Source: a virus (lineage: Duplodnaviria; Caudoviricetes). From it: a stretch of 55,284 nucleotides of DNA. Location: positions 1 to 55,284 of the IMG/VR virus record IMGVR_UViG_3300037440_000124; one strand, given 5' to 3'. Numbering within the stretch: position 1 is the first letter of the stretch; the number at the start of each line of letters is the position of its first letter. Shown here piece by piece: positions 2,891 through 17,452 of the stretch. Under the pieces are notes generated by a model. That model was not told the origin of the DNA. It saw only the letters and a program-made list of their open reading frames with translations, and ran no database searches. The position numbers and the translations under genes are program-made.

Positions 2891-4872
2891 CGGCGCCCAC
2901 CGAAGCTTTTCTCAACGTCCTGTCTGGCCTTGGAAGCGGCCAGTTGTGTCACCGCTGCTAACTGCGCCTGCCACTGCGGAGGCAGACCTACCTGAACGTT
3001 AAACGTCTGCTGAATGACCGCACCACCAGCACCGTTCGGTACGATGTGACCTGACGAGCGCGGGACGAAAATCTCCTCATCAGGACGCACTAAGTACGGG
3101 GTTCCCGCTGTGACTGGACCTCCAGAATGCCTCGTCTCTGGCTTGAACAGTCCGCCAAAGAAGTTCAGGAACGGCTCTGTTATCAGCTTACGGATAGCGA
3201 GTCGCAGCAGATCCTTGTAAAGGCCGCGTAGAACGTCGGACAGCTTGTTACCCTCGACAATTGCATCCTCGAATGCGCTGGTAAACGTCAGTCCAAGATC
3301 GCGTGCTGCTTCTTCGGCCTTGCTGGCTTCTTCGTTCTTTGCCTCGTAAGCATCAGCCAGAGAACGAAGCTCCCTGCCGATCATCTCGTTGACCTTGGCC
3401 TCTTCTCGCCCGGCCTCAATCAGTCGTTCACGCAGTATCAGCGCACTTTGAACGGCTCGGTCGAATTCCTCACGAGGCGTACGATTACGTTCGATAAGCT
3501 GGTTGTAGCGCTCCATATCTGCCAGAAGAGGGTTAATCTTCTGAACGGATATTTCTATTTCTTCCAGCCCTGCGCTCAATGTGTCTTTTATGGAATCGCT
3601 GATGCGCTGGAATTCTTCCGGGCTTAGGTCGCTTTTGTATTTATTGAGTTCAGCGCGAAGTGCTGCCGCTTTTTGTTCAGCGGTTGCGAAGTTGTCTATA
3701 AACTTCTGGAAGCTCTCCTTGTGAGATTCGAAAAGAGTGTCAAGCTCGGAATTCGTCCTGTCGAAACTGCCGAAAACCTCGGCGGGATCACGACGTTCCG
3801 GCTCGCCGAGTCCAAACGACTGTTCCTGAAGTCGCTGGAACTTCGAAAGCTCGGCTTGCACTTCTGCAATGCGCGCCCGTATCTCGTCTGGATTCTCACC
3901 GAACAGCCATCCGCCAAACCCGCCTAGCTTGCTTTCTCGATGAGCAAGACGGGTCTGTAGCTGTTCCAACTCATCCCTGGCTTTAACAATCTCCTTTTCG
4001 AACGGGAATGGGTTGGCACCAAAGAAGGCAGCACCGAACGCCTGTGCAACAGCGGTTCCGCCCTTCGCCAGTGCGGTCAGATTGTCCAGCAACCCGCTTT
4101 CGGCAATAGCAACCTTCAGTTCGAAGATTGCTGTCGAAAATCGGTTGATCGATGCCTGCGCATCGTTAGCTGCTGCCGCGACCTCTGGACCGAAGGTCTT
4201 TGTCAGTTCCTTCGCCAGTGCCGGCAAAAGGTCCTCGGCCGTAAGTTCTCCGGCCTTGAGCATCTTGTCTAGTTCGGCGGTAGTGACGCCGATGGACCGT
4301 GCCGCAATCTGGAACGCACCAGGAAGGCGCTCGCCCAACTGGCCTCGAAGCTCCTCGGCCGAGACCTTGCCCTTCGAGATGATCTGCTCAATCGCAGTCA
4401 GGGCACCGCCTGTCTGTTCAGCAGTAAGACCGAGAACCCGTGCCGCCTGGCTGACACCGACGAAGATATCGCGGGATGCCTCACCAGCCAGAGTCGTTCC
4501 CTTAGCCGCAGCCGCGAGCTTCGCGTATGACCCAGCGGTACTTTCCAGGCTAAGCCCGAGGTCGTCCGCAGTCTTGCGAACGAACGCCATTTCGCGTTCA
4601 GATCCGACAGCACTACCGGTCGCAACCTTAAGCGCCCGTTCGAACTGCTGCATCTTGATCGCAGCGTCCGTCACAGATCCCACAAAGCGAGCAATCTCCC
4701 GAACACCAAGACCTATGCCAAACGCAGCAAAACCGGCCTTGATTAGCCCCAGCGACTTCTTGTTCTGCTTCTCGAACTTCTGCAGCTTCTTCTGTGCGCC
4801 CTCCAGTTCTCTCTGGTACTTGGCCGATTGCGCTTCTAGTAAAACTACATACCGAGAGAGAACGCTAGCCAC
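2887..4872 (-). CDS. Tail tape measure protein
   Basis: 661 aa, helical and Ala-rich, with QIISKGKVSAEELRGQLGERLPGA (tape-measure N-terminal domain) and C-terminal HSGGPV..G.PYLV. Confidence 0.93.
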   Translation of the reverse strand: MASVLSRYVVLLEAQSAKYQRELEGAQKKLQKFEKQNKKSLGLIKAGFAAFGIGLGVREIARFVGSVTDAAIKMQQFERALKVATGSAVGSEREMAFVRKTADDLGLSLESTAGSYAKLAAAAKGTTLAGEASRDIFVGVSQAARVLGLTAEQTGGALTAIEQIISKGKVSAEELRGQLGERLPGAFQIAARSIGVTTAELDKMLKAGELTAEDLLPALAKELTKTFGPEVAAAANDAQASINRFSTAIFELKVAIAESGLLDNLTALAKGGTAVAQAFGAAFFGANPFPFEKEIVKARDELEQLQTRLAHRESKLGGFGGWLFGENPDEIRARIAEVQAELSKFQRLQEQSFGLGEPERRDPAEVFGSFDRTNSELDTLFESHKESFQKFIDNFATAEQKAAALRAELNKYKSDLSPEEFQRISDSIKDTLSAGLEEIEISVQKINPLLADMERYNQLIERNRTPREEFDRAVQSALILRERLIEAGREEAKVNEMIGRELRSLADAYEAKNEEASKAEEAARDLGLTFTSAFEDAIVEGNKLSDVLRGLYKDLLRLAIRKLITEPFLNFFGGLFKPETRHSGGPVTAGTPYLVRPDEEIFVPRSSGHIVPNGAGGAVIQQTFNVQVGLPPQWQAQLAAVTQLAASKARQDVEKSFGGRR

Positions 4873-6618: not shown

Positions 6619-7011
6619 TCAGTAATAGGCGACAAAGAATTGCAATGACACGCGATATAGCTTCGTGTCTGTCTCGAAGAATTCGAGCTTCCGTTCCAAT
6701 CTGATCTGGTCCACCTGATCACGAGGACTCAAGGTGCCGAAAGCTCCGGTATGACCGGCGAGTGAAGATTCCACGGCGTCAGCTATCTCGTGTGCACCCC
6801 CATGAACCAGAGACCAGCAATCGACCTCGTACAGGGCTGTTTTCAGCGAACTCACTGCATCGAATAGTTGCTGGCGCTCATCCGACTGCAGTCTGTAGCT
6901 GATAGACGGAAACGTGGCGTTTTGCGGAACCCAGTGCGGGTATATCGCGCCCACGAGAGCGTCCACCCCTGCATCTGCTGCGAGGTGCGAGTAAAACGAC
7001 TCGATGAACAT
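6619..7011 (-). CDS. Tail terminator / completion protein (DUF3168-like)
   Basis: IYPHWVPQNATFPSISY..YEVDCWS..A..IADAV; synteny. Confidence 0.8.
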   Translation of the reverse strand: MFIESFYSHLAADAGVDALVGAIYPHWVPQNATFPSISYRLQSDERQQLFDAVSSLKTALYEVDCWSLVHGGAHEIADAVESSLAGHTGAFGTLSPRDQVDQIRLERKLEFFETDTKLYRVSLQFFVAYY

Positions 7012-7469
7012 CAGGACTTGGCGGCTTTATCGATCAGGCGTTTCAACTGCGTGCGAAACCTTGCATCCACGTCAGGAATAGAAGCAGCAAAGGCCGGCTC
7101 AAACCACGGACGCGGCGGATTGCGTGACGTACCGAACTCGTAGAAGTTAATCGCATAGAACGCTTCCTTGCGCGGTGCCAACATCACAATGACCGTCCGC
7201 TTATCCCGACTCAACAGGGATTTGCGCGAGATGTTGCGGCTCGCATAACCAGGCGTTCTGAGATTCCCCTTGTACGTCTTGACCGGGTACGGGTCTTTCA
7301 ATCTTCCGTCATACGTATACGGAGGATTGCCAACAGGTGCCGCTGCTTGTGTCGCTTTGAGTGCCGGCAGCATCGACGTCATGGCGGCTGATCGCAGCGC
7401 CTTACCTCCAGCAGCAGCGGTCATCTTGCGCAGCTTCTGATCAAGTTCTTTGTAACCGATGGTCGGCAT
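7011..7469 (-). CDS. HK97 gp10-like tail completion protein
   Basis: FYEFGTSRNPPRPWFEPAF motif; start chosen at the ATG overlapping the upstream stop. Confidence 0.85.
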   Translation of the reverse strand: MPTIGYKELDQKLRKMTAAAGGKALRSAAMTSMLPALKATQAAAPVGNPPYTYDGRLKDPYPVKTYKGNLRTPGYASRNISRKSLLSRDKRTVIVMLAPRKEAFYAINFYEFGTSRNPPRPWFEPAFAASIPDVDARFRTQLKRLIDKAAKS

Positions 7470-7780
7470 CAGGCCACATGCTCCACGCACATCAGTTTCA
7501 GGTACCTGTCGCGTTCCTCGAGATTCAGCACAGACCGGATATTGAACGTCCGCGTCGAATAGACGACTCGGTCGCGCGGGGCCACGGTCACCCCATGCCG
7601 CAGTACGATCTCGTGCGTGACCTCTGCTTTCTCGCCGCTGGCGTTGAAATACTCACGCCCTGAAATAGGACGAATGGACGCCCATGGTGTTGACGTTTCG
7701 GTCCATGTCTCTACCAACTGTCCAGTAGAATCTTGAGCACTGCCTATTCGCTCAATAGAAACCTTCTTGTCCAGATTCAT
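7469..7780 (-). CDS. Head closure / head-tail adaptor (SPP1 gp16-like)
   Basis: WASIRPISGREYF..THEIVLRH..RVVY..FNIRSV motif. Confidence 0.88.
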   Translation of the reverse strand: MNLDKKVSIERIGSAQDSTGQLVETWTETSTPWASIRPISGREYFNASGEKAEVTHEIVLRHGVTVAPRDRVVYSTRTFNIRSVLNLEERDRYLKLMCVEHVA

Positions 7781-7783
7781 TGG

Positions 7784-8383
7784 CTAGAAACACCGCCATG
7801 CGCTGATCAACTTGTCCCGAAAATCCACATCGAAACCGGTCTTCGTGACCAACAGGCCGTTCAGTTCCATGGCCTCAAACACCGAAGCCGTGATGGCCCG
7901 CCTTATGTCGGCCGGAACCGTGGTGTGGTTGGTCCACCCAGCGGTGAACGTAATCACCACCGGGGCTATGACATCGGCATCCACGGACGGCCAAGAGCTG
8001 CCGCGGTTCGGCATCAGACGCCCTGCATGGCCCCGCAGGTCTTCCTGATAATCTGTTCCGGCAGGTGAAGACGTAGGACCGGTCAAGGTCGTCACAGCCC
8101 CGCCGGATGAATACGCGACACTAGCGACCGACTGCGCCTTACCGCGCGGCAGGTTTATGATCTGGTCGCTGATGCGAGGAAAGTCAGACAAAATCCATCT
8201 GTGCTCCCTGGCGATGATTGCCCGGTGCATGACACCTTCAGCCCAGCTAACCGCATCCGGGATGTACTGCTCCATGAGCACGTCATCCAGACTGTCGCTT
8301 GATATGCGAAGGTCAGACTTCAGTAGTTCCAGGTCGATCGGCAGGGACGCTGGCTCATCGATATCGATAGTGATTGATTTCAC
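7784..8383 (-). CDS. Head-tail connector protein (gp6/gp15-like)
   Basis: PIDLELLKSDLRI..DD..ITFTAGW..VPADIRRAI motif. Confidence 0.85.
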   Translation of the reverse strand: MKSITIDIDEPASLPIDLELLKSDLRISSDSLDDVLMEQYIPDAVSWAEGVMHRAIIAREHRWILSDFPRISDQIINLPRGKAQSVASVAYSSGGAVTTLTGPTSSPAGTDYQEDLRGHAGRLMPNRGSSWPSVDADVIAPVVITFTAGWTNHTTVPADIRRAITASVFEAMELNGLLVTKTGFDVDFRDKLISAWRCF

Positions 8384-8399
8384 GATTCACCATAAGTCA

Positions 8400-9092
8400 T
8401 TAAAACAGGTGCCCGACAGGTCTGCCGGCGCGAATCTCTTCCCAGTTCCACTGAGTCCACGCCAGCAAGTGCGCCCATTCCTCGCGGTCTTCGATTCCAT
8501 ACGCCATGCAGCCCTCGTCGTGAACTTCTACCGGCCGCCCACGAATGACCGCCTCCACCGCGACCGACGAGTTCAGGACGTGAAACTTGGCGTCCGTCCA
8601 GTCCGTCTTCACCGGCAACGCAGTCGGATTCGTGCCGGCTGGATGTGGCCGAAAATGAGTCGCTTCGGTGACCGTGGCATACCATTCATCAAGCCGACTC
8701 CAATGTGGACTGTACGGCTCGGTCTGGCCGCACAGGACGATATGCTGATAGCCCATGAGTGGCGGCCAAAGCTCCCTGCCAAGCGCCTCCCAGCGGCTCT
8801 CGTCGGCCCACGGCGGAACACGGTGGTCACCCCTGCGCCCGTGTCCGTTCCACACCAACTGGACGAAATCCGGATCGCCGACGCTGGCCCGATCCACCAA
8901 CAACCAGTCACCTTCGTCGCTTTCGATAGACCGCCAGAAGGTGGTGCCGAACAGTATCGACACATCAGCGATGCGCGTCCGGCTCTCTGTGATATCGTGC
9001 TCTATGCCAAGAGCCTTTAAGCCTTGCGAGAAATCGCCTATCCGCTTCGCCTGCCAAGGGACCGCCTGGTTGTAGTGGACTGCTAGGCCCAT
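8400..9092 (-). CDS. Putative glycosyltransferase (capsule-synthesis KpsC/S-like C-terminus)
   Basis: FRPHP and NSSVAVEAVIRGRPV motifs; within the sugar-modification cluster. Confidence 0.5.
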   Translation of the reverse strand: MGLAVHYNQAVPWQAKRIGDFSQGLKALGIEHDITESRTRIADVSILFGTTFWRSIESDEGDWLLVDRASVGDPDFVQLVWNGHGRRGDHRVPPWADESRWEALGRELWPPLMGYQHIVLCGQTEPYSPHWSRLDEWYATVTEATHFRPHPAGTNPTALPVKTDWTDAKFHVLNSSVAVEAVIRGRPVEVHDEGCMAYGIEDREEWAHLLAWTQWNWEEIRAGRPVGHLF

Positions 9093-9703
9093 CCCGATAC
9101 CTGATGCGGTTTCGGGTTGCCGTGATGCACGGTAATCGGCGCAGAACCCAATCCCCTCATGCGGTGATATTTGAAGGAATCTATATACTCGTCCGGGAAA
9201 AGCCTGATCCCGTCAGGCCATAGCAACTGCGTGATTATTCCTTGATCCCCATGTGTGGTTGCAATCAAATCTTCAGCGCCAGACATATCCTTTTTGCCGC
9301 TCCAGTACATAACTGAGCTATTGATGGTCTGCTCTCTACCGTTATTCATCATAGGGCCGGCAAATCCCGGCTTACGGATCGTAGACGATTGCACAACAGG
9401 GTACGAAAAGTCGTTTCTGGCCCAGAGCTTATTCGGGTCAGTACGTCCCAGGACGACCAGAGGATCGATGTTGCCAGTGATGTTTAGATCAAGGTCGAGA
9501 TACAACACCTCACCGTCGAACATCTCAAGCAAGTGCAGCTTATTGAACCATCCGACTCTACCTTCTGGAAGTTCCTTCTCCGTGATCTCTACGAATTTGC
9601 ACGGCATCGTCAGATGTTCTGAAACCATGTGAAACATTCTGACAACGTACTTGGATCCAATCCCAAGATAGTTTTGCCAATTCAAACAGACTACATTCAG
9701 CAT
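9083..9703 (-). CDS. Glycosyltransferase (GT8-like, GT-A fold)
   Basis: GWFNKL..LYLDLD (DxD)..NSSVMYW..GDQ..HGNPKPH motifs. Confidence 0.78.
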   Translation of the reverse strand: MLNVVCLNWQNYLGIGSKYVVRMFHMVSEHLTMPCKFVEITEKELPEGRVGWFNKLHLLEMFDGEVLYLDLDLNITGNIDPLVVLGRTDPNKLWARNDFSYPVVQSSTIRKPGFAGPMMNNGREQTINSSVMYWSGKKDMSGAEDLIATTHGDQGIITQLLWPDGIRLFPDEYIDSFKYHRMRGLGSAPITVHHGNPKPHQVSGWA

Positions 9704-9709
9704 GGCTCT

Positions 9710-10297
9710 TCAGCGAAGGTTCCTGTAGATCGGCGCAATCGGCATCTGAAATGGTAAATCCTTCACTCGTTTCGCGCGGAAAAACCACATGCGCCTGGGA
9801 GCAATCCCGGACATATACAGGCGTTCGCAGTCCAGGCCGTTCAATTCTGCAAGCTCGCGATAGAACCGATCGTCGGGATAATGCAATCCGTGCCAAGTCC
9901 AATCACCTGGGGCCGGCGTAGTACTGATCAGCACACTGCCGACGTGCATTGCCTCCAGAATGTTCCTCCAGCACGGCTCCTGCGTGTCGACGTGCTCGCT
10001 GGTGCCGATATTCGACACCATGTCGAACGTTCCAAAACCCAGCGGCTTACGCAGATCCTTGACCAGAGAGCCGTGCTGACCGTTCCAGTCAACGCTGACG
10101 TGCCTGAATCCATTCTTCTCGAAGAAGCTTTTGTACGTATACGGTGCGTTGATCTTACAGCCAAGCTCCAGCATCGACTCGCCCTGCAATGGCTGGTACA
10201 GCTCCCACTCAGCCAGTCGATTGTGGAAAGGCCCTAAATCAGATTGACCAGATTGCAAGTTTGCAGCCATCTGCTCCGCCATCGTTGACGCTCTCAA
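9710..10297 (-). CDS. Class I SAM-dependent methyltransferase
   Basis: MLELGC..SVD..DL..FDMV..GTSEHV motifs; start uncertain. Confidence 0.72.
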   Translation of the reverse strand: MRASTMAEQMAANLQSGQSDLGPFHNRLAEWELYQPLQGESMLELGCKINAPYTYKSFFEKNGFRHVSVDWNGQHGSLVKDLRKPLGFGTFDMVSNIGTSEHVDTQEPCWRNILEAMHVGSVLISTTPAPGDWTWHGLHYPDDRFYRELAELNGLDCERLYMSGIAPRRMWFFRAKRVKDLPFQMPIAPIYRNLR

Positions 10298-10760
10298 TGT
10301 AATCCCAGAGGTACGCGCGGAGATCCAGACGGGTGAATTCCTTGTTGCCGTCGTACCAGTCGAACTGTGTTGCTATCAGGTACCTCGACGATTTCCTGAA
10401 TAGCGCAAGCGCCGCCTCAATGCGCGGCGCATCAAGATGATTCAGTACGTGCCTGCACAACAGACCATCTGCTAGCGGCATGGCCTCGTTGGTAATATCG
10501 AGTTTGGTCACTGTTTCTGCTCTAGGAACCAGGTCGAACGGTCGATATTCGACATCCCACTTGATCTGTCGAATCCAGTTCATATCGCCAGCACCGGCGT
10601 CGTTAAGCGTCATAATTCCGTATCGCTTCACAACAGATGGAAGCCATCGGCGAATATTATCTGTGCTTCTCAGCGTTGAACCGTTACCGCAGATTGTTTC
10701 AGGTTTCCCTCCCCTCCAGCCTTTAGCCATGCGCTTAAGCATGGCTTCGTCAGACAACAT
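10239..10760 (-). CDS. Class I SAM-dependent methyltransferase-like protein
   Basis: CGNGST..LNDAGAGDMNW..DIT..LLCRHVLNHL motifs. Confidence 0.68.
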   Translation of the reverse strand: MLSDEAMLKRMAKGWRGGKPETICGNGSTLRSTDNIRRWLPSVVKRYGIMTLNDAGAGDMNWIRQIKWDVEYRPFDLVPRAETVTKLDITNEAMPLADGLLCRHVLNHLDAPRIEAALALFRKSSRYLIATQFDWYDGNKEFTRLDLRAYLWDYIESVNDGGADGCKLAIWSI

Positions 10761-11373
10761 CGGATATGTCCATCGACGGAATCACACCTTCAAGCGCGGA
10801 ATGCGGTGTCACACAAATCAATTCGACCAATCCCTGCTCATGTATCGACCGGTACAGTTCCACCAGTCCGATGTGTACGCCATGCCGTACTTGCACGCTG
10901 GGCCAATGTGCCATTTGTGGCGGATATTCGCCGAAAAAATGACGCGGCGTTGATCCAATTTGTCTAGACCGACCGTCGTAGTCAGATGCGAATTTCAGGT
11001 CGTAGCCCAACAGGAGAATGCTTTTTGCACCTGCTCGATATGCCATCGACACCAGCGAAAAACCTGATCCAAATCCGTGGTGAATCACGTCCGGGTCAGT
11101 CGACAGCCCCTTGGCATTCCGCTCAGCAATCCAGTTAATCCCGAATTCATCAGCCGCCTGTCTGTTAGTCGTCCACTTCTCTGCCGGCAAATCCTTAACT
11201 TGCGTCCAATAATGTGACCACCAGGAATAATTACATCCATATAACAGCGCTGCATCGGGTACCAGTTGAAAAGCGTTATTACACGCGAACAACAAAAAGC
11301 CGCGACTACGCGCGGCATCGATTTGTGCAACGGTCAGTGACGGACCAGTCGCAACACAACAGATAGTGATCAT
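10750..11373 (-). CDS. MptE/MAF-like, GT29-like fold protein
   Basis: VATGPSL..CNNA..SGFSLVSMAY..GAKSILLLGYD..HFFG motifs; paralog of 13485..14168. Confidence 0.6.
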   Translation of the reverse strand: MITICCVATGPSLTVAQIDAARSRGFLLFACNNAFQLVPDAALLYGCNYSWWSHYWTQVKDLPAEKWTTNRQAADEFGINWIAERNAKGLSTDPDVIHHGFGSGFSLVSMAYRAGAKSILLLGYDLKFASDYDGRSRQIGSTPRHFFGEYPPQMAHWPSVQVRHGVHIGLVELYRSIHEQGLVELICVTPHSALEGVIPSMDISDVV

Positions 11374-11555
11374 TCGTCCGGCGGCTTGCCGAGCTTGTTT
11401 ACCATGTAAAACAATTTGATAGCGCCTCTGGGAATCGAGCGTTCACCCGATTCCCAGCGCGCCCACGTTCTCGGAGTAACCTCCACCTGCCTGGCAGCAT
11501 CAGCAAGTGACAGGTTAAGCTCATAACGTAACTTTTTGAGTTCTTCGCCTTTCAT
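11370..11555 (-). CDS. Small XRE-type HTH regulator, similar to the Aca2 N-terminal HTH
   Basis: MKGEELKKLRYELNLSLADAARQVEVTPRTWARWESGERSIP; last gene of the Cas7-like cassette. Confidence 0.8.
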   Translation of the reverse strand: MKGEELKKLRYELNLSLADAARQVEVTPRTWARWESGERSIPRGAIKLFYMVNKLGKPPDE

Positions 11556-11965
11556 ACCTGCCAGACACTACCTAACCCCAACGACCCCGACTGACCCCGC
11601 CTGAACTGACCATGACACATCTTGTCTGCCGCGCCTTAGAGCACCCGACCTAACCTCACAGCGCCTTGCCAGACCGCGCCAAACCTAACCAAATCTGCCG
11701 CAAACTTACCGGACCTAACCGCTCCTAACCATTCCATACACCACCAAGCCGTGCCGGACCGCATCTGCCCCACCAGCACACATCAGACCTCGCCCGTCCA
11801 AAGATCACCCCACCAGATCAAACCATGTCTGCCGCACCGAACCCCTACGGAACGTACCCAACATTACCATCCATACCTCGACACGTCTGCCAAGTCTTAC
11901 CGCACCTAACCGTGCCTTTCCCAGCCACGCCTTGCCGGGCCTGACCATGCCATCCCATGTCTGCC
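11556..11965 (-). ncRNA. Non-coding guide-like array: six units of alternating GGY/NN (5-nt period) bounded by GGCAGAY motifs
   Basis: Boundary motifs begin (minus strand) at 11965, 11891, 11833, 11769, 11699, 11630 and 11562; by hand count 44 of 70 spacer triplets are exactly GGY; 11-14 variable dinucleotides per unit. Confidence 0.85.
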
Positions 11966-11968
11966 TTG

Positions 11969-12436
11969 TCATGCAGCCTTGCGTTTCTTTCGCGAAGCTG
12001 AATTCCGAACTTGACGTATCGCCAGAATAACCGGCTTTGCCATTTGCAAATGAGCGTATCTAGACTCAAGGCGACTGATAAGATCAAGAAACCGACCTTC
12101 GGCTGCCGTAACCTCGTCCTCGGTTGCCTTGAATAACGGCACGTACCTGCCGCGATCTGCCGATTGGATAAAGGCGTTGACCTCGATCACTTCGTTTTGC
12201 GCGTCTACAATCTCGACGTGCAATGATTGAACCATGACACGCGCCTGCACCATTCGAAACTGGTGCGCGGCCTCCGTGTCACTCCACTCGAAGATCGCGT
12301 GAGCCGGTGATCGAATCTTTCGCGCCTCTTTGATAATCCGCTCTGCGGACATATCCGGCAGTGACTCAAGCCATTCGCCGATAGCCTGAGCGTCGCCATT
12401 GAGGTGTCTGCGCCACTTATAGATTCGATTTTTCAA
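11969..12436 (-). CDS. Accessory protein of the Cas7-like cassette (conserved phage hypothetical)
   Basis: AERIIKEAR..SPAHAIFEWSDTEAAHQFR..QAR motif; TTG start with AGGGAGG RBS overlapping the upstream stop. Confidence 0.7.
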   Translation of the reverse strand: MKNRIYKWRRHLNGDAQAIGEWLESLPDMSAERIIKEARKIRSPAHAIFEWSDTEAAHQFRMVQARVMVQSLHVEIVDAQNEVIEVNAFIQSADRGRYVPLFKATEDEVTAAEGRFLDLISRLESRYAHLQMAKPVILAIRQVRNSASRKKRKAA

Positions 12437-13074
12437 GTGGCCTTCCTCCCTTTCTTCGGATTCTTGACGCACCACATCCCAAAGTCACCACCGAATGACT
12501 TGCGACCGAACGGACGAAGTTCGTCAACACCGATCTGTGTTCCGGCTCTCGCCAACAAATTCGCAACATCATTGGCGGATACAAGGTCAGCATCGAATTC
12601 AACTGCGATTTCGCAAGCCCAGGAATCGTATCTGGGACGATTCCTCAGATCCGTTACGCCAGACTCAAGCCTTACCGGACGGGTATCATGCACAGACTTA
12701 CCATGAATCCTTACCAGTGGCGTGCCATCCGTTACATCGAAGCCATCAGGCTTGATGAAGAATGCACCCTTGGCAACTGTCATCGGCAAGCCATCGACAT
12801 TCGAACAAGCACGAATCATCGCCGCTCGAATTGACAAGGCCGGAATACCTTCCCACTTCGCCGTGCTGATGTATTTCGCACCCAGATATTCTGCTTTGTA
12901 ATCCTTCGGTGCGCGCTTCTTCTTCGTTTTGCTCTCAGCCTGCTGCGTTTCCTCCATTTGCTTTCTGGATTTCTCAGAAAACTTATGAAGCATCAGCGGG
13001 CTAACGCCTTCCAGCCTGAGCTTGACTACCTGAAAGTTAGGCGGCTGGATTTCAATACGGGTTTTCTTAATCAT
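12433..13074 (-). CDS. Stand-alone Cas7/RAMP-like RNA-binding protein
   Basis: N-terminal beta strand LRLEGVSPLMLH; GIPALSIRAAM (cf. RAMP IPgSSlKGalR); C-terminal Gly-rich loop IGVDELRP..GGDFG; ATG at 13074 with GGAG RBS. Confidence 0.75.
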   Translation of the reverse strand: MIKKTRIEIQPPNFQVVKLRLEGVSPLMLHKFSEKSRKQMEETQQAESKTKKKRAPKDYKAEYLGAKYISTAKWEGIPALSIRAAMIRACSNVDGLPMTVAKGAFFIKPDGFDVTDGTPLVRIHGKSVHDTRPVRLESGVTDLRNRPRYDSWACEIAVEFDADLVSANDVANLLARAGTQIGVDELRPFGRKSFGGDFGMWCVKNPKKGRKAT

Positions 13075-13121
13075 CGGTCGATCTCCATACGCCACGACCC
13101 TACGCCATGGCTTCAACCCTA

Positions 13122-13150
13122 ACTATGACCAATGGTCAGAGCATAGTCAA
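13122..13150 (-). promoter_or_regulatory. Sigma70-like promoter with overlapping palindromic operator
   Basis: TTGACT-17 nt-CATAGT; inverted repeat TGACCA-A-TGGTCA at 13126-13138 and ACTATG..CATAGT at 13122-13147. Confidence 0.65.
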
Positions 13151-13156
13151 TATCTT

Positions 13157-13360
13157 TCACACAAATTCAGGCGGCTTCGGATACGGCTCGCGCAACTGAT
13201 AGGCTCGTCGCACCTTCAGATGCCAGTCACGCACCGCGGCGTCAATCTCCTCACCTTTCTTGGCGCACGGCTCGCACAGACCGCCACTAAAATGCGCCTC
13301 CTGAGACTCGATGGCTTTTTTCTGAGTCCCGCAACGATCGCAAACGTAAATAATAGCCAT
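13157..13360 (-). CDS. Small hypothetical zinc-binding protein
   Basis: CDRC and CEPC pairs; AGAGGA RBS. Confidence 0.55.
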   Translation of the reverse strand: MAIIYVCDRCGTQKKAIESQEAHFSGGLCEPCAKKGEEIDAAVRDWHLKVRRAYQLREPYPKPPEFV

Positions 13361-13372
13361 TGATAATCCTCT

Positions 13373-13564
13373 TTATCGCTTTCGTGCGGTCTTTTTCTTT
13401 ACCCCTTTCAGGGACAGAACCGGGAGACCCTTGTCCGCGTATCCCTCTCTGAGTGCCTTGCGGGCCATGCTTTCGGAAATCTGCTCAGGCACCTTGTACC
13501 TGCCCTTCGACAGAAAACCGCCCTGTATTGGCCAGTCTTGTGTCAGTTTTATGGTGTAACTCAT
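13373..13564 (-). CDS. Small basic hypothetical protein
   Basis: GAGGAG RBS before the ATG at 13564; overlaps the upstream gene. Confidence 0.45.
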   Translation of the reverse strand: MSYTIKLTQDWPIQGGFLSKGRYKVPEQISESMARKALREGYADKGLPVLSLKGVKKKTARKR

Positions 13565-14168
13565 GTTGCTCCTCGAGTGCCTGTTCAAAGGTCATCTTTG
13601 GAAAGCACTGCAACGCGCTGACAGGTGTGGCATTCACGATCCTGATATGCGCCGGCAGCTTTTTCGCCGCCACGTCAAAGTGCTTTGCAAATTCAGTGTA
13701 ACGAGTACCTGATTCTAATTCCCTCGGATACTCACCGAAGAAATGCGATTTCCCGCCGGTCTTCTGCATGTCGAAGCCGATCAGGATGATGTGCTCACAG
13801 CCGAACAGGATCGCCAGGTTGATCGCCTGAAATCCCGAGTTGCTGCCGTAGTTGATAACCGATGGATCAAGTGAAAACGTGGAACCATGAGCGCCTTGCA
13901 CACAATGCACTTTCCACTTCTCGTGTGCCTCTGTCTTGTCGTTCGATGAATATCTTCGACCTTCGTGGGTGCTCCACTTCTCACCATCGAACGCTCCATC
14001 GTGATACTTCCACCATCTCGGCTCACAGCCATACAGAACGTCCGCCCATGGGATCAAGCGATAGGCATCCTGTACAACAATGATCGGATGATGACGAACC
14101 GGTACCAAAGAAGGCCCCGGCGCGGCCACGATACATGACCGCCACCGGGGAGAAACAACCTCAAGCAC
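13485..14168 (-). CDS. MptE/MAF-like, GT29-like fold protein (paralog of 10750..11373)
   Basis: VAAPGPSL..NSGFQAINLAILFGCEHIILIGFD..HFFG..NATP.SAL. Confidence 0.6.
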   Translation of the reverse strand: MLEVVSPRWRSCIVAAPGPSLVPVRHHPIIVVQDAYRLIPWADVLYGCEPRWWKYHDGAFDGEKWSTHEGRRYSSNDKTEAHEKWKVHCVQGAHGSTFSLDPSVINYGSNSGFQAINLAILFGCEHIILIGFDMQKTGGKSHFFGEYPRELESGTRYTEFAKHFDVAAKKLPAHIRIVNATPVSALQCFPKMTFEQALEEQHELHHKTDTRLANTGRFSVEGQVQGA

Positions 14169-14171
14169 CGA

Positions 14172-15443
14172 TCAAGTATCGGCGAGTTTCAGTAGCTTCA
14201 AACTGTCATTATTAAGAACAGTTCCGCCGTAGCGCCGACGCACATAGAAGCGAACGTAACCAGGATTGGTCACGGACTCGCTCTGTATCATCAGTTCCGT
14301 ACGGCTGGTCAGCAGGTAAGCCCGTGCAAAATCACCGAAGGCAATAGCAAAGCCATCGCCCGTGGTGGGATTGCTCAGGTTCTCCCAGGTGAATACCTCG
14401 TAGCCCAACAGACGGTCAGGCTGGCCGACCTGCAGACTCGGTTGCCAGAGATACTGGCCGTTCGTGTCTTTCAGCTTCCGCATGAAGCCCTGCGTCACCG
14501 TGTTCATTGCGAACTTGGCGTTGCTTCGATAACGCGGGTTCAACGCATACACCAGGTCGATGACGTTATCCGCATTGATTGCCTGCGGAGAACTGGTGAC
14601 CGCGATGTACTCGTAAGCATCAGCATCACGAAGCGGAGATGCATGGTCATCGGTTGATACAGGCGCAGTATCGGTCATACCAGTCGGCTTGTCGGAACCG
14701 TCGCCGCTGTAGATCGCCAACGCCAGAGCATTCGACATGCCCTCCGAGATGTCGTTGACCAGCCAGTCCGATACATTGAACTGGATATCCTGGATCGACC
14801 ATTCGGAAACCTGCGGGTACGCATAAAGCTCGCCCCAGGTCGGCTTACGGCTCCTCAGGTTCGGCGTTCCGGTTGCAGACCTGGTACCGGCTTCCGCCAC
14901 CCACCCCGACGTTCCGCCATGAATCGACACCAGCTCCTGATAGTCGCTCGTGCCAACGCGAATGTTCTTCACGTTGTTCACGACCTGCGACAACTTCAGA
15001 AGCAGAGCATCGACCGAGGCACCGATTTCCTTCGGCAGGGCAAAACCACCGCCAGGGTTGCTTCCGATGGTCACGTCTTTCTGTGACAGATCGCGCAACT
15101 TGCCATTGATGGTGCTGTCCTGGAACCCGACACGCAGTCCCTTGAAGAACATGTCGTTGTATTCCTTACGAGCGATCTCCTCCGGTGTTCCGCGCGGACG
15201 GTCGGCAAGCGCTTCCAGCATCTCGATGCGCGCCTGTTTCTTCGCCTCTTCGGCCTCCATGGCCTTAAGCTTCGCCTGGGACGAGTCCAGATCCTTGCTG
15301 ATCTTCGTCAGCTTCTGCTCGAGTTCCTGAGTAAGGGTCTGATTGCCCTTCTCCATGGCCTCAAGGCGTTCGTCGTTGGTCTTCTGAAACTCGGTAACCG
15401 TCTCACCGAGCTTCTGCATCTCCTCTACAATGGGATTTCCCAT
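14172..15443 (-). CDS. Major capsid protein, HK97 family
   Basis: Coiled-coil delta domain; GGFALP, GDGSDKPTG, LKDTNGQYLWQP, LLGYEV, FGDF motifs. Confidence 0.96.
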   Translation of the reverse strand: MGNPIVEEMQKLGETVTEFQKTNDERLEAMEKGNQTLTQELEQKLTKISKDLDSSQAKLKAMEAEEAKKQARIEMLEALADRPRGTPEEIARKEYNDMFFKGLRVGFQDSTINGKLRDLSQKDVTIGSNPGGGFALPKEIGASVDALLLKLSQVVNNVKNIRVGTSDYQELVSIHGGTSGWVAEAGTRSATGTPNLRSRKPTWGELYAYPQVSEWSIQDIQFNVSDWLVNDISEGMSNALALAIYSGDGSDKPTGMTDTAPVSTDDHASPLRDADAYEYIAVTSSPQAINADNVIDLVYALNPRYRSNAKFAMNTVTQGFMRKLKDTNGQYLWQPSLQVGQPDRLLGYEVFTWENLSNPTTGDGFAIAFGDFARAYLLTSRTELMIQSESVTNPGYVRFYVRRRYGGTVLNNDSLKLLKLADT

Positions 15444-16125
15444 TTCGTTGTCTCCTGAGTTGAGAACGTATCAATGCGGCGGTCGCAACGTCATTAAGTT
15501 GCTTGGCCGCTTCCAGCAGATCGTCATCAACCTCGCGTTGATCGGAGTCCAACCTCGCGCCGGAGCCCAACAGATCATGCACAATATCTTTCGCAGCTTT
15601 TTGCGAGCAACCTACCTCGCGTAGGTGCTTTTCCAGATCCCTAGCCCCGGCAAACTGCGACTTCACGCCTGCAATAACTGCCGCAGGGTTCATCGCGAAA
15701 TTCACCGGAGATACTTCGTACAATTCGATTTCTTTCAGCAGGCGATTGCCTCTTTTGTCGTAATCAACCTCCACCGGTATATAACCGATGGACATGGTGT
15801 CGATGGCTCGCATCTTTGCCAGTGTGCGAACGTCCCTGCCCATTTGTGTGTCTGCAAGTTTGCCCTTCATGTAAAGTCCATTATCGTCTTCGCCGAATTT
15901 TTCCCACGCCCCTATCGGAAGATCGAGAGAACGGTGGTTCCACAGCATCTTAGGCCGTGTCCCGTTCTTCTCATGCTCGGCTATGGACTTGGCAAACGCG
16001 CCAGGAATTACAATATCGGCACCGAGATCGACGTTTCCGAAAACGGACCCGTACCCTTCGATTTCGCCACCATTCGCGGCCTTGATCTCGAACGGGACTG
16101 CCAGGTACTTAATGCCATCGCTCAT
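15403..16125 (-). CDS. Prohead maturation protease (HK97 gp4 / U35-S78)
   Basis: EGYGSVFGNVD..GAF..MLWNH..PIG..SIGY..LYEVSPVNFAMNP; GGAGAG RBS before 16125. Confidence 0.93.
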   Translation of the reverse strand: MSDGIKYLAVPFEIKAANGGEIEGYGSVFGNVDLGADIVIPGAFAKSIAEHEKNGTRPKMLWNHRSLDLPIGAWEKFGEDDNGLYMKGKLADTQMGRDVRTLAKMRAIDTMSIGYIPVEVDYDKRGNRLLKEIELYEVSPVNFAMNPAAVIAGVKSQFAGARDLEKHLREVGCSQKAAKDIVHDLLGSGARLDSDQREVDDDLLEAAKQLNDVATAALIRSQLRRQRNGKSHCRGDAEAR

Positions 16126-16219
16126 GTGTCTCTCCGTTCGTCCTTTGGTCGCCTGAATCATCGACCGGAGCTTTTCCTGCCATTGCGCAGGTAGTCCGGC
16201 ACTGACCCGATAAGTAAAC

Positions 16220-17452
16220 TCAACGGTTTCCACCAGGCACCCCATCTGTCACTGGCTTTTTAACCGGCTCCTCGCCTGGTTTAGCCATGTTCAACGGCCT
16301 GATGTAGTCCTCGCCGCCGTCTTCCTTTGAAATTGGATTTCGGTTGGTCTGTTCGCGCCATTCGTTTGCGTTGATGACCCCAGCATCGCGCTCGATCTTC
16401 AGCGCTTCGCTGCGGGTCTTGATGTCGGCCCTTTGAACTGCATCCAGGTTGAAGCGGATGATCACGCCACCCCTGCGGTCGTCATCAGTCAACAGATCTC
16501 GCTCCATTGCGGACTCGAATCGTTTGGCAATCGGCATGATCACGTTGATAGTGAAGTCCGTGTCCTGCTGTTCCACGTTGTTGAACGTGCCACGCTCCAG
16601 ATCGCCAACAAGATGCGGTGGAACCCCAAGGGCACCTGCGATCACGGTGCGGATAAATCTGCGCGTCTCGATGAATTGCGCTTTGTCGTTCTCTATGGTG
16701 ATCGTGTCGTAGTCCATGCCTTTGGGCAGCATCCCGGCAGACAGCTTTTTCTTACCGGCAAACTCCTGCTGAAATTCGCTTAGAAACTTTTCCTTCTCTT
16801 CTTTGGTATTGAAATCCTTGAATCCTTCCATGAGCTTGAAAAGCACCATGGGCAAGGCACCATTGCCGAAAAATGCGGCTCCGAACTGCTCTGCTGCTAT
16901 CTCCAGAGCAATGGATTCCGCTATGTCCTCGACTGGAGAGTCGCCCTTGTAGAAATTCCGCGCGCCTAGCCGCACGTAGTGCATCTTGGAGAACGGGATA
17001 TCTGTGGAGTCGAAGCGAAACGTCACGCGCCACTGCTCGTCTTGCTTGACCTCAACACGACCGGCTTGGAGCGGGATCAGTTCACGAATGGGGCCAGTTG
17101 AACCGCGGCCTATGTTTGCGTGAAAACGGCCATGACGGATCAAACTGGACACCGCGTCCCCGATATACTCCTCCCTTGTTTGCCACGAGTTCGGCCTGTT
17201 CAAAAGCCTTGCTACCGGGTGACCTGGCAGTTCCTCCTTAGTCGCTCGACCGTTGCTCTCGGCCTTTTGCAGAACGTGCAACGGAGAGATCAAAAGCCGG
17301 TTCTGCACCGCCGTTACAATCGCGTGAACGGTCGGCGACCTCATGCAATTCTCGGGCGTAACCGAGATGCCGGAGGTGGTCATCGCCATCATGGCGATGT
17401 TCCGCAGCATGGTGTCCAGGCTTACGTCCTTCTTCTCCCAGGGCCACCTCAT
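16220..17452 (-). CDS. Portal protein, HK97 family
   Basis: HPVARLLNRPN, QFIETRRF..IA..GVPPHL, TFNNVEQQ, NEWR motifs. Confidence 0.95.
   Translation of the reverse strand: MRWPWEKKDVSLDTMLRNIAMMAMTTSGISVTPENCMRSPTVHAIVTAVQNRLLISPLHVLQKAESNGRATKEELPGHPVARLLNRPNSWQTREEYIGDAVSSLIRHGRFHANIGRGSTGPIRELIPLQAGRVEVKQDEQWRVTFRFDSTDIPFSKMHYVRLGARNFYKGDSPVEDIAESIALEIAAEQFGAAFFGNGALPMVLFKLMEGFKDFNTKEEKEKFLSEFQQEFAGKKKLSAGMLPKGMDYDTITIENDKAQFIETRRFIRTVIAGALGVPPHLVGDLERGTFNNVEQQDTDFTINVIMPIAKRFESAMERDLLTDDDRRGGVIIRFNLDAVQRADIKTRSEALKIERDAGVINANEWREQTNRNPISKEDGGEDYIRPLNMAKPGEEPVKKPVTDGVPGGNR

What the first reader, a model, noticed from the sequence alone, without database searches (positions are those of the whole stretch)
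11563..11630. Unit 6 nearly matches the gene immediately downstream of the cassette
U6 (AA GT AT CA CA GG CA GG TC GG TA AG CT) aligns to own codons GAC GTG ATT CAC CAC GGA TTT GGA TCA GGT TTT TCG CTG (11053-11091, DVIHHGFGSGFSL). 9/13 dinucleotides and 20/26 nt are identical, using a parse with one 2-nt GG spacer. This is the best internal evidence for the gapped code. It points to a close relative's allele of the flanking gene, possibly favouring spread of the cassette against cassette-free relatives (homing-like behaviour; speculative).
Basis: partly seen in the sequence, partly recalled or inferred. Interest (0 to 1): 0.85.

Follow-up and report, generated by a model that had tools for sequence, protein, structure and literature searches.

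The report
VIPR guide aimed at relatives' gene
Unit 6 is a guide RNA of a phage VIPR system, a CRISPR-like system first described in 2026, and it spells two letters of every codon of a conserved motif in rival phages' copy of the neighbouring gene, while the phage's own copy is mismatched.

Summary
U6 (11563-11630, minus strand) matches own codons 11053-11091 at 9 of 13 dinucleotides and 20 of 26 bases. The next best place in the genome scores 6, and 1 of 500 order-shuffles reaches 9.

The "gapped code" is real but already in print. The cassette is a VIPR system (Vipr protein, Vap, GGY/NN vrRNA array). Three 2026 bioRxiv preprints describe its "1-nt skip rule", in which the skipped base is the codon wobble. 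Our Vipr profile's best PDB hit is the chain named "SUSP1 Vipr protein" (E 1.3e-5).

- One metagenome contig carries a 13/13 allele, with the predicted AGY serine.
- Three IMG/VR relatives score 12/13.
- U2 hits the same gene 11/11 in three relatives.
- U4 hits a distant capsid gene 13/13 in three contigs.
- None of 34 relatives' loci carries the cassette.

The phage's own allele stays below the published 80% threshold. It has Phe where 118 of 120 homologs have His.

The "homing-like" idea is untested, and no nuclease was found. This scan has met VIPR before on at least eight other genomes. Verdict: a new member of a known kind, with a neat case of self/non-self discrimination.

The parts
12433..13074 (-). 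vipr: 213-aa Cas7/RAMP-like protein, the guide-binding filament subunit
   Evidence: phrog_4652, no Pfam hit. AF2 model pLDDT 78. All top Foldseek PDB hits are Csm3/Cas7 (E 1e-3 to 3e-2, TM 0.3-0.4). The profile's best PDB sequence hit is 36pp_D 'SUSP1 Vipr protein', E 1.3e-5. hhalign to phage SUSP1 ORF 28474-29061: probability 94.9%, E 4.6e-8 over 55 columns.
11969..12436 (-). vap: 155-aa accessory protein of unknown fold class. An alternative GTG start at 12475 gives 168 aa.
   Evidence: phrog_15946. A tblastn-detectable relative (E <= 1e-5) follows vipr in 13 of 14 related loci; the 14th locus ends inside vipr. No similarity to SUSP1 vap1. AF2 pLDDT 84, but no Foldseek PDB match with E < 0.9.
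11563..11965 (-). vrRNA array of six abutting guides: U1 11892-11965, U2 11834-11891, U3 11770-11833, U4 11700-11769, U5 11631-11699, U6 11563-11630. Each is GGCA plus 11-14 pentads of (G-N-Y triplet + NN).
   Evidence: G autocorrelation 0.35 at lag 5. Unit layout. The same architecture follows the vap homolog in 11 related IMG/VR loci whose arrays were read out in pentads; 3 of the 14 loci end before it or showed no period-5 signal.
11563..11630 (-). U6, the guide in question (13 NN)
   Evidence: 13/13 NN in metagenome contig L082. 12/13 in L030, L036 and L060. 9/13 in the phage's own gene.
11370..11555 (-). 61-aa HTH (XRE-type) gene, the last gene of the cassette. Its ribosome site sits in a seventh GGCAG header (11558-11562).
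   Evidence: Pfam HTH_31 E 6.5e-9; weak Aca2/YdiL-like hit. A homolog lies before, inside or after the array in 9 of 14 related loci.
11053..11091 (-). Own near-target of U6 in the MptE-like gene (residues 95-107)
   Evidence: 9/13 NN and 20/26 bases, in frame. Own Phe101 stands where 118 of 120 homologs have His.
10795..10827 (-). Own near-target of U2 in the same gene (residues 183-193)
   Evidence: 7/11 NN, in frame. Relatives' alleles match 11/11 in L045, L055 and L056.
10750..11373 (-). mpte1: MptE-like / phrog_4603 ('alpha-2,3-sialyltransferase') gene flanking the cassette. It is the targeted gene family.
14808..14846 (-). Own near-target of U4 in the HK97-type major capsid gene (14172-15443)
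   Evidence: 7/13 NN in the own gene, in frame. 13/13 at the homologous motif of capsid genes that are 33-36% identical, in L084, L085 and L086.
13157..13360 (-). 67-aa Cys-rich ORF inside the inserted segment (13484 down to 11374). Role unknown.
   Evidence: only weak zinc-ribbon hits. In 27 of 31 relatives the two mpte genes abut, so all DNA between them here is an insertion.

Best explanation
The 410-nt tract is the guide array of a phage-borne VIPR system. It is transcribed with vipr and vap from the minus strand.

Proposed mechanism, by analogy with phage SUSP1: the RNA is cut at, or overlaps by one base at, each GGCA|G boundary into six vrRNAs. One Vipr protomer binds each pentad, buries the G-G-Y triplet and presents the two NN bases. 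The filament pairs those NN with double-stranded DNA and skips every third target base. In a coding sequence the skipped base is the wobble position.

U6 and U2 are aimed at two highly conserved motifs of the MptE-like gene that sits next to the cassette, in the form carried by cassette-free relatives. U4 is aimed at a conserved capsid motif of a more distant phage lineage. Binding inside a rival's late operon would block its transcription during co-infection or in a resident prophage.

The carrier phage is spared because its own alleles differ at 4 of 13 (U6), 4 of 11 (U2) and 6 of 13 (U4) dinucleotides. For U6 and U2 all but one of these differences are amino-acid changes (the exception is the synonymous TCG-for-AGY serine under U6), and some fall at residues that are near-invariant in the family.

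Shown here: the architecture, homology to Vipr, the code, the targets, the own-allele mismatches, and the absence of the cassette in targeted relatives.

Inferred from the preprints on SUSP1 and not tested for this clade: filament formation, DNA binding, silencing, and vrRNA processing.
For: Family:
- The Vipr profile hits PDB 'SUSP1 Vipr protein' at E 1.3e-5.
- hhalign to the SUSP1 ORF gives 94.9% probability.
- Foldseek returns only Csm3/Cas7 chains at the top.
- 11-14 GGY/NN pentads per unit, within the published 9-16.

Code:
- Only a target period of 3 gives the U6 outlier.
- At the amino-acid level U2, U4, U5 and U6 score z 3.2-5.6, with 0 of 100 shuffles as high.
- Between two related arrays, NN positions changed at 3 of 63 sites against 15 of 99 in the 'constant' triplets (Fisher p 0.043, three unit pairs).

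Targets:
- U6 13/13 in L082 and 12/13 in 3 of 52 loci.
- U2 11/11 in 3 of 52 loci.
- U4 13/13 in 3 IMG/VR contigs, inside capsid genes.
- All hits are in frame with the wobble base skipped.

Self-avoidance:
- The best own-genome scores are 9/13, 7/11, 7/13, 7/13, 6/12 and 6/14. All are under the published 80%.
- Own Phe101 against His in 118 of 120 homologs.

Cassette-free targets: 0 of 34 loci hold vipr, vap or the HTH gene.

A hairpin plus T-run directly after the array in L006 and L007 fits sense-strand transcription (read from the printed sequence).
Against: - No RNA data exist for this phage, so expression and the processing sites of the guides are unknown.
- This clade has no conserved 3' tail or pseudoknot, which the characterised type II vrRNAs have.
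- Its Vap is unrelated to SUSP1 vap1, so the mechanism is carried over from a different VIPR type.
- By the per-base score of the second preprint (threshold 0.8) the own U6 site scores 20/26 = 0.77, only just below. Some self-binding cannot be excluded.
- Own rare residues are not significantly enriched in the two guide footprints: 2 of 14 conserved columns inside against 2 of 67 outside, Fisher p 0.14.
- U1, U3 and U5 have no target at or above 80% in anything searched.
- Why a probably non-essential glycosyltransferase-like gene would be a useful target is unexplained, unless silencing is polar on downstream late genes.
Confidence: 0.85

Rival explanations
1. Drive-like ('homing-like') unit. 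The cassette and the adjacent guide-resistant mpte1 allele spread together. In mixed infections the guides silence cassette-free genomes at the neighbouring gene. Recombinants that pick up the resistant allele also inherit the tightly linked cassette. This extends the best explanation rather than replacing it.
For: - Two of the six guides hit the gene whose start codon overlaps the end of the cassette.
- Targeted relatives lack the cassette, and in 27 of 31 the two flanking genes abut.
- Nucleotide identity to contig L082 rises from 0.52 beside the cassette to 0.78 at the far end of mpte1 and about 0.86 in the next genes. This is a single comparison.
- The cassette sits at the same capsid-mpte2 | mpte1 junction in the distant loci L006 and L007, whose capsid proteins are 41-42% identical.
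Against: - No nuclease or recombinase domain in Vipr, Vap or the HTH protein.
- Characterised VIPRs repress transcription and do not cut.
- U4's exact targets lie in capsid genes only 33-36% identical. That is too distant for homologous exchange, so at least part of the arsenal is plain interference.
- The divergence gradient rests on one 2.9-kb contig and could be an ordinary mosaic boundary.
Confidence: 0.15
2. Self-regulation. U6 and U2 bind the phage's own mpte1 weakly and tune the timing or level of its own late-operon transcription.
For: The own site scores 20/26 = 0.77 per base, close to the 0.8 cut-off used in print. The guides and the site lie in the same operon.
Against: Perfect and near-perfect sites exist in relatives, while the own allele is the outlier of the family. 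The preprint found no self hits at or above 80% NN for the guide sets it checked against their own contigs (P. fulva clade, types III and V). Disrupting NN pairing abolished silencing in the published assay.
Confidence: 0.06
3. Relic of guide genesis. Guides are somehow copied from neighbouring DNA, and U6 is a decayed copy of an ancestral own allele with no present target.
For: The guide and the matched gene are adjacent. How new vrRNAs arise is not stated in the preprint sections that I read.
Against: U6 is not decayed: it matches living alleles 13/13 and 12/13. U4 matches a distant capsid lineage 13/13. NN positions are the better-conserved part of related arrays.
Confidence: 0.04
4. Chance resemblance, or a TRAP-like protein-binding RNA in which the NN bases are meaningless spacers.
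For: The own-genome match alone is only about p 0.05 after correction for 24 tests. A triplet + 2-nt-spacer layout also occurs in TRAP binding sites (recalled, not tested).
Against: A 26-base exact gapped match at the homologous codons of a homologous gene. Independent exact matches for U2 and U4. NN positions are more conserved than the triplets.
Confidence: 0.01

Closest known systems
VIPR systems, reference type II of Escherichia phage SUSP1 and a Pseudomonas fulva prophage (bioRxiv 10.64898/2026.04.26.720920, .720927 and 10.64898/2026.10.15.759431). I read the Results, the Discussion and methods sections 20 and 27 of the first; the abstract and section 6 of the second; the abstract and sections 8 and 17 of the third.
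   Same: - Small RAMP-like Vipr protein with an adjacent vap gene.
- Guides built of GGY/NN pentads (11-14 here, 9-16 published).
- 1-nt skip rule with the skip on the codon wobble.
- Phage-borne, with targets in other phages.
- No self hit at or above 80% NN.
   Different: - No conserved 3' tail or pseudoknot.
- Guides of 58-74 nt abut at a 4-nt GGCA, against about 100 nt in SUSP1.
- Vap is unrelated to vap1.
- Vipr is alignable to the SUSP1 protein only over about 55 C-terminal columns.
- An HTH gene travels with the array.
- Targets are late genes (an MptE-like gene and the capsid gene) of relatives, not satellite recombinases or lysis-lysogeny regulators.
VIPR 'staggered arrays' (legend of fig. 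S18 of 10.64898/2026.04.26.720920; legend only, figure not held)
   Same: Guides follow one another without spacers, and the end of one marks the start of the next. Here every unit length is 4 mod 5 (74, 64, 69) or off by an internal indel, so the pentad frame slips by one base at each GGCA.
   Different: I could not see the figure or the type tables (supplements closed). The assignment to this architecture and to a numbered type is unconfirmed.
Class 1 CRISPR-Cas backbones (Cas7/Csm3 filaments on crRNA)
   Same: RAMP fold: all top Foldseek hits are Csm3/Cas7. One protomer per fixed number of guide bases, with periodic base flipping.
   Different: 5-nt period with only 2 pairing bases, against 6-nt period with 5. 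No repeat-spacer array. No cas1, cas2, cas5, cas6 or cas8, and no nuclease.
Homing endonucleases and 'marker exclusion' in T-even phages (recalled, not searched)
   Same: A mobile cassette whose activity is directed at the cassette-free allele of the neighbouring gene, while its own flank is resistant.
   Different: No endonuclease here. The action is presumably silencing, not cleavage, so repair-driven copying is not expected.

Membership tests
VIPR | Vipr: a small RAMP-like protein homologous to the published Vipr | tested here: met
   The profile of 24 homologs has PDB 36pp_D 'SUSP1 Vipr protein' as best hit, E 1.3e-5. hhalign to SUSP1 ORF 28474-29061 gives 94.9% probability, E 4.6e-8. I chose that ORF as vipr by its size and its position between two GGT-NN tracts. 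Foldseek top hits are Csm3/Cas7. A conserved Gly-rich C-terminal loop is present.
VIPR | vrRNA made of 9-16 tandem YNNGG (GGY/NN) pentads | tested here: met
   Six units of 11-14 pentads, with lag-5 G autocorrelation 0.35.
VIPR | NN specify a target by the 1-nt skip rule, with natural targets at or above 80% NN | tested here: met
   U6 13/13 and 12/13, U2 11/11, U4 13/13. Target periods 2, 4 and 6 give nothing for U6. U1, U3 and U5 have no target found.
VIPR | No self-target at or above 80% NN | tested here: met
   The best own-genome score is 9/13 = 69%. By per-base score it is 0.77.
VIPR | Accessory vap gene next to vipr | tested here: inconclusive
   A conserved 155-170-aa gene follows vipr (tblastn match in 13 of 14 loci). 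It matches neither SUSP1 vap1 nor any PDB fold. I could not compare it with vap2-6 because the supplements are closed.
VIPR type II (SUSP1 clade) | Conserved 3' tail with a pseudoknot after the repeat tract, and vap1 | tested here: not met
   Units abut with only GGCA between them. Vap is unrelated to vap1. So this is VIPR, but not type II.
VIPR | vrRNAs are expressed, bound by Vipr, and repress the target | not testable with these tools
   Needs small-RNA sequencing, pull-down and reporter assays.
CRISPR-Cas | Repeat-spacer array plus cas1/cas2 or a multi-subunit effector | tested here: not met
   No CRISPR repeats, no Rfam hit, and no other cas-like gene within 9000-14500.
Homing endonuclease cassette | A site-specific DNA endonuclease domain | tested here: not met
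   No Pfam, PHROG or PADLOC nuclease hit in the cassette proteins. No fold match for Vap.

The most novel reading that the evidence does not exclude
The VIPR cassette and the guide-resistant allele of the gene it abuts form one linked selfish unit. By silencing the cassette-free version of its own neighbour in co-infecting relatives, the cassette ensures that the only escaping recombinants are those that also inherit the cassette. This would be an RNA-guided, cleavage-free analogue of homing or marker exclusion. It would explain the divergence gradient toward the cassette and its recurrence at the same capsid-mpte2 | mpte1 junction in distant phages.
Probability: 0.15. Interest if true: 0.7.

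Novelty: new member of a known kind. Interest (0 to 1): 0.45.

Why it matters
The result independently replicates the VIPR 1-nt skip code on an uncultivated sediment phage from a clade far from the experimental models.

It also gives a clean natural example of how a VIPR-armed phage tells self from non-self. Its guides spell the family-consensus motifs of two late genes, and its own copies carry amino-acid changes at those motifs. One of these replaces a His found in 118 of 120 homologs.

The words 'capsid', 'allele' and 'homing' do not occur in the main text of the first preprint, and 'homing' does not occur in the third. I did not search the structural preprint for these words. Late structural or glycosylation genes as targets, and the linkage between cassette and resistant flank, therefore seem not to be discussed in the two texts searched. 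The supplementary target tables, which I could not open, may list such cases.

If the linkage idea holds, VIPR cassettes would be a new kind of drive element in phage populations.

Tried and rejected
- TRAP-like or other protein-binding repeat RNA with meaningless spacers: rejected.
- G-quadruplex or rut-site readings: dropped once the code was confirmed.
- Rfam: no family.
- blastn of 10700-12500 against the phage collection: no match.
- Single-protein locus searches with Vipr and Vap in viral contigs: nothing. The alignment-based search worked.
- Nucleotide-level self-scan of five other VIPR-bearing genomes: 1 of 44 units at p <= 0.05, so near-self matches are not general at that level. That run mis-parsed U6.
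- Amino-acid-level scan: 9 of 45 units had 0 of 100 shuffles as high. One of the nine (G003 unit 3) was an artefact that fell inside another array.
- Local 740-kb database with arrays masked: only 3 of 85 units reach 80% NN. For 11 of the 85 units (short ones of 8-9 NN among them) the best of 30 shuffles also reached 80%.
- Enrichment of own rare residues in guide footprints: not significant, p 0.14.
- U4 and U5 against the 120 nearest capsid homologs: best 9/12 and 9/13 compatible, no full match. U4's exact targets turned out to lie in a more distant capsid lineage.
- Exact-pattern scans with no hit: U6 in viral contigs, U3 and U5 in viral contigs, U5 and U1 in genome contigs.
- Vap: no Pfam, PADLOC or PDB-fold assignment.
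- Sequencing runs: no RNA holder listed.
- Complex prediction, the protein-atlas search and the RNA-model tools were not used.
- The promoter-like site at 13122-13150 is one of 2 found against 2.0 expected, so it is not evidence.
- The supplements of the three preprints (type tables, target lists data S3/S4) were closed. They may already list this clade or late-gene targets.

Full report
**What is there.** The window is a complete 55,284-base IMG/VR phage genome with terminal repeats. Between ORF 11969-12475 and a small HTH gene (11370-11555), all on the minus strand, lies a 410-nt non-coding tract. On that strand the tract is G-rich (A 67, C 65, G 179, T 102) and strongly periodic, with G autocorrelation 0.35 at lag 5 and 0.38 at lag 10. 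It divides into six units that begin with GGCAGA, at 11965, 11891, 11833, 11769, 11699 and 11630. Their lengths are 74, 58, 64, 70, 69 and 68 nt. A Viterbi parse reads each unit as GGCA followed by 11-14 pentads of a G-N-Y triplet plus two variable bases, NN.

**Checking the observation.** I slid the 13 NN of U6 along both strands, comparing each NN with positions 1-2 of successive triplets.
- The best place is 11053-11091 (minus strand): 9 of 13 NN and 20 of 26 bases. The next best place scores 6.
- Of 500 shuffles of NN order, 1 reached 9. In a second run 0 of 200 did.
- With target periods of 2, 4 or 6, U6 shows nothing unusual.
- The site is in frame with ORF 10750-11373. That ORF's ATG overlaps the stop of the HTH gene.

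After allowing for 24 unit-by-period tests, though, it is only moderately significant on its own.

**The cassette.**
- The gene upstream (12433-13074, phrog_4652, no Pfam hit) folds with pLDDT 78. Its top Foldseek PDB matches are exclusively Csm3/Cas7 chains of type III, type VII and Cas7-11 complexes, though weakly (E 1e-3 to 3e-2, TM 0.3-0.4).
- The family is large: 231 proteins in one search and 2,755 clusters at 50% identity with E <= 1e-3.
- Of 14 IMG/VR loci encoding relatives 53-65% identical, 13 show a tblastn match to the 155-170-aa partner gene. For 11 I read out a period-5 G array headed by GGCAG. The other three end before it or showed no period-5 signal.
- An HTH homolog lies before, inside or after the array in 9 of the 14.

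**It is a known kind.** A literature search found three 2026 bioRxiv preprints on VIPR (Viral Interference Programmable Repeat) systems.
- A VIPR system has a Vipr RAMP protein, a vap gene, and vrRNAs of 9-16 GGY/NN pentads. The NN bases pair with double-stranded DNA under a "1-nt skip rule", and the skipped base generally falls on the codon wobble position.
- Natural targets were called at >= 80% NN match. No self hit passed that threshold in the guide sets checked against their own contigs.
- Characterised type II systems repress transcription of competing phages and satellites.
- Cryo-EM shows one Vipr protomer per pentad. The protomer sequesters GGY and presents NN.

Membership was tested directly. 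The profile of our Vipr alignment has the PDB chain 36pp_D, "SUSP1 Vipr protein", as its best hit (E 1.3e-5). hhalign to the SUSP1 ORF 28474-29061 gives 94.9% probability over 55 columns.

This clade is not type II. Its guides lack a 3' tail and abut at GGCA, and its Vap is unrelated to SUSP1 vap1 and to any PDB fold. The abutting units fit the "staggered arrays" named in a figure legend. I could not see the figure or the type tables.

**Where U6 really points.**
- Among the 120 proteins returned for ORF 10750-11373 (the phage's own protein among them), 14 read NVIHHGHGSGYSL and 5 read KVIHHGHGSGYSL at the aligned site. The own Phe at column 7 is unique: 118 of 120 have His.
- At the DNA level, among 52 IMG/VR loci with a homolog, U6 matches 12/13 in three, 11/13 in four and 10/13 in six. 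The own allele matches 9/13.
- An exact-pattern scan of metagenome contigs found one 13/13 match, L082. It lies at the homologous codons of a 72%-identical homolog and uses the predicted AGY serine. The next gene in L082 is 89% identical to the window's, so this is a close relative.

**The other guides.**
It matches 11/11 in three relatives, whose peptide VEIINCTPGSA is the commonest variant at that site (13 of the 120 proteins).
- U4 matches the own capsid gene 7/13. Its first 12 NN match exactly at the homologous motif of capsid genes 33-36% identical, in three IMG/VR contigs. With the parser's reading of the last NN the match is 13/13.
- U1, U3 and U5 have no target at or above 80% in anything searched.

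**Cassette-free targets.** None of the 34 loci whose homolog is at least 50% identical has a vipr, vap or HTH match (tblastn, E <= 1e-5). Of these, 31 have at least 1,500 nt upstream.
- In 27 of the 31, the paralog mpte2 abuts mpte1 (gap <= 60 nt).
- In the other 4, 439-1,139 nt of other DNA lie between them.
- L082 holds two unrelated ORFs there.

So the 2.1 kb from 13484 down to 11374 in the window is an insertion between two genes that are normally adjacent. The same junction carries a VIPR cassette in the distant loci L006 and L007.

**Limits and counter-evidence.**
- Own rare residues are not significantly concentrated in the two guide footprints (p 0.14).
- By the per-base score of the third preprint the own U6 site reaches 0.77, against a 0.8 cut-off.
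- Near-self matches were not general in five other VIPR genomes at the nucleotide level (1 of 44 units at p <= 0.05). At the amino-acid level several units resemble genes beside their own cassette, for example a unit of G005 against the gene just downstream (z 5.8).
- The rise in identity to L082 from 0.52 beside the cassette to about 0.86 two genes away is a single comparison.
- No nuclease was found, so homing in the strict sense has no support.
- A linked "weapon plus resistant flank" reading remains possible but untested.

**Verdict.** The system is a new member of the already published VIPR family. This scan has recognised VIPR on at least eight other genomes before.

Noticed in passing
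window 8400-14168: Two paralogous MptE-like genes (phrog_4603, 'alpha-2,3-sialyltransferase'), two probable methyltransferase-like ORFs and a further ORF sit between the capsid gene and the rest of the late operon. This may be a virion glycosylation module. Its function is untested.
   Followed up: partly
window 9934-11373 against L082: Nucleotide identity to the close relative L082 climbs from 0.52 next to the cassette to 0.78 at the 3' end of mpte1 and 0.78-0.88 (mostly about 0.86) in the downstream genes. This is a divergence gradient pointing at the insertion site.
   Followed up: partly
G003 2935-3875 and G004 15278-16255 (loci L010, L011): Two related phages share several guides in the same order. 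In three same-length unit pairs the NN bases changed at 3 of 63 sites and the 'constant' triplets at 15 of 99. Other units differ entirely, as in CRISPR arrays with shared and private spacers.
   Followed up: partly
L005 (G005) about 4779; L011 (G004) about 5615: A G005 guide resembles a motif (GEIWLYD...) of the gene just after its own cassette, at 7/11 NN (z 5.8). The last guide of G003 resembles the start of the gene after the array in G004 (z 7.8). Guides aimed at neighbours' alleles may be common in this clade.
   Followed up: partly
L006 3651 against L034 4204: A guide of another VIPR phage matches the C-terminal capsid motif of a cassette-free phage at 9 of 10 NN.
   Followed up: no
phage records: Vipr homologs (29-39% identical) sit unannotated ('hypothetical protein') in 27 Mycobacterium phage records, 2 Gordonia phage records and Cyanophage Cy-LDV1.
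   Followed up: no
L073 and L074, about 6940-8730: A 68%-identical HTH homolog, a weak Vipr-like match (22%) and a period-5 C signal lie near a distant mpte-like gene. This may be another VIPR cassette on the opposite strand.
   Followed up: no
window 11558-11562 and equivalent sites in L002, L009: The HTH gene's ribosome site and start codon are built into a further GGCAG header (GGCAGGTATG...), as if the gene began where a seventh guide would.
   Followed up: no
window 13157-13360: A 67-aa Cys-rich ORF lies inside the inserted segment upstream of vipr. It has only weak zinc-ribbon hits.
   Followed up: no
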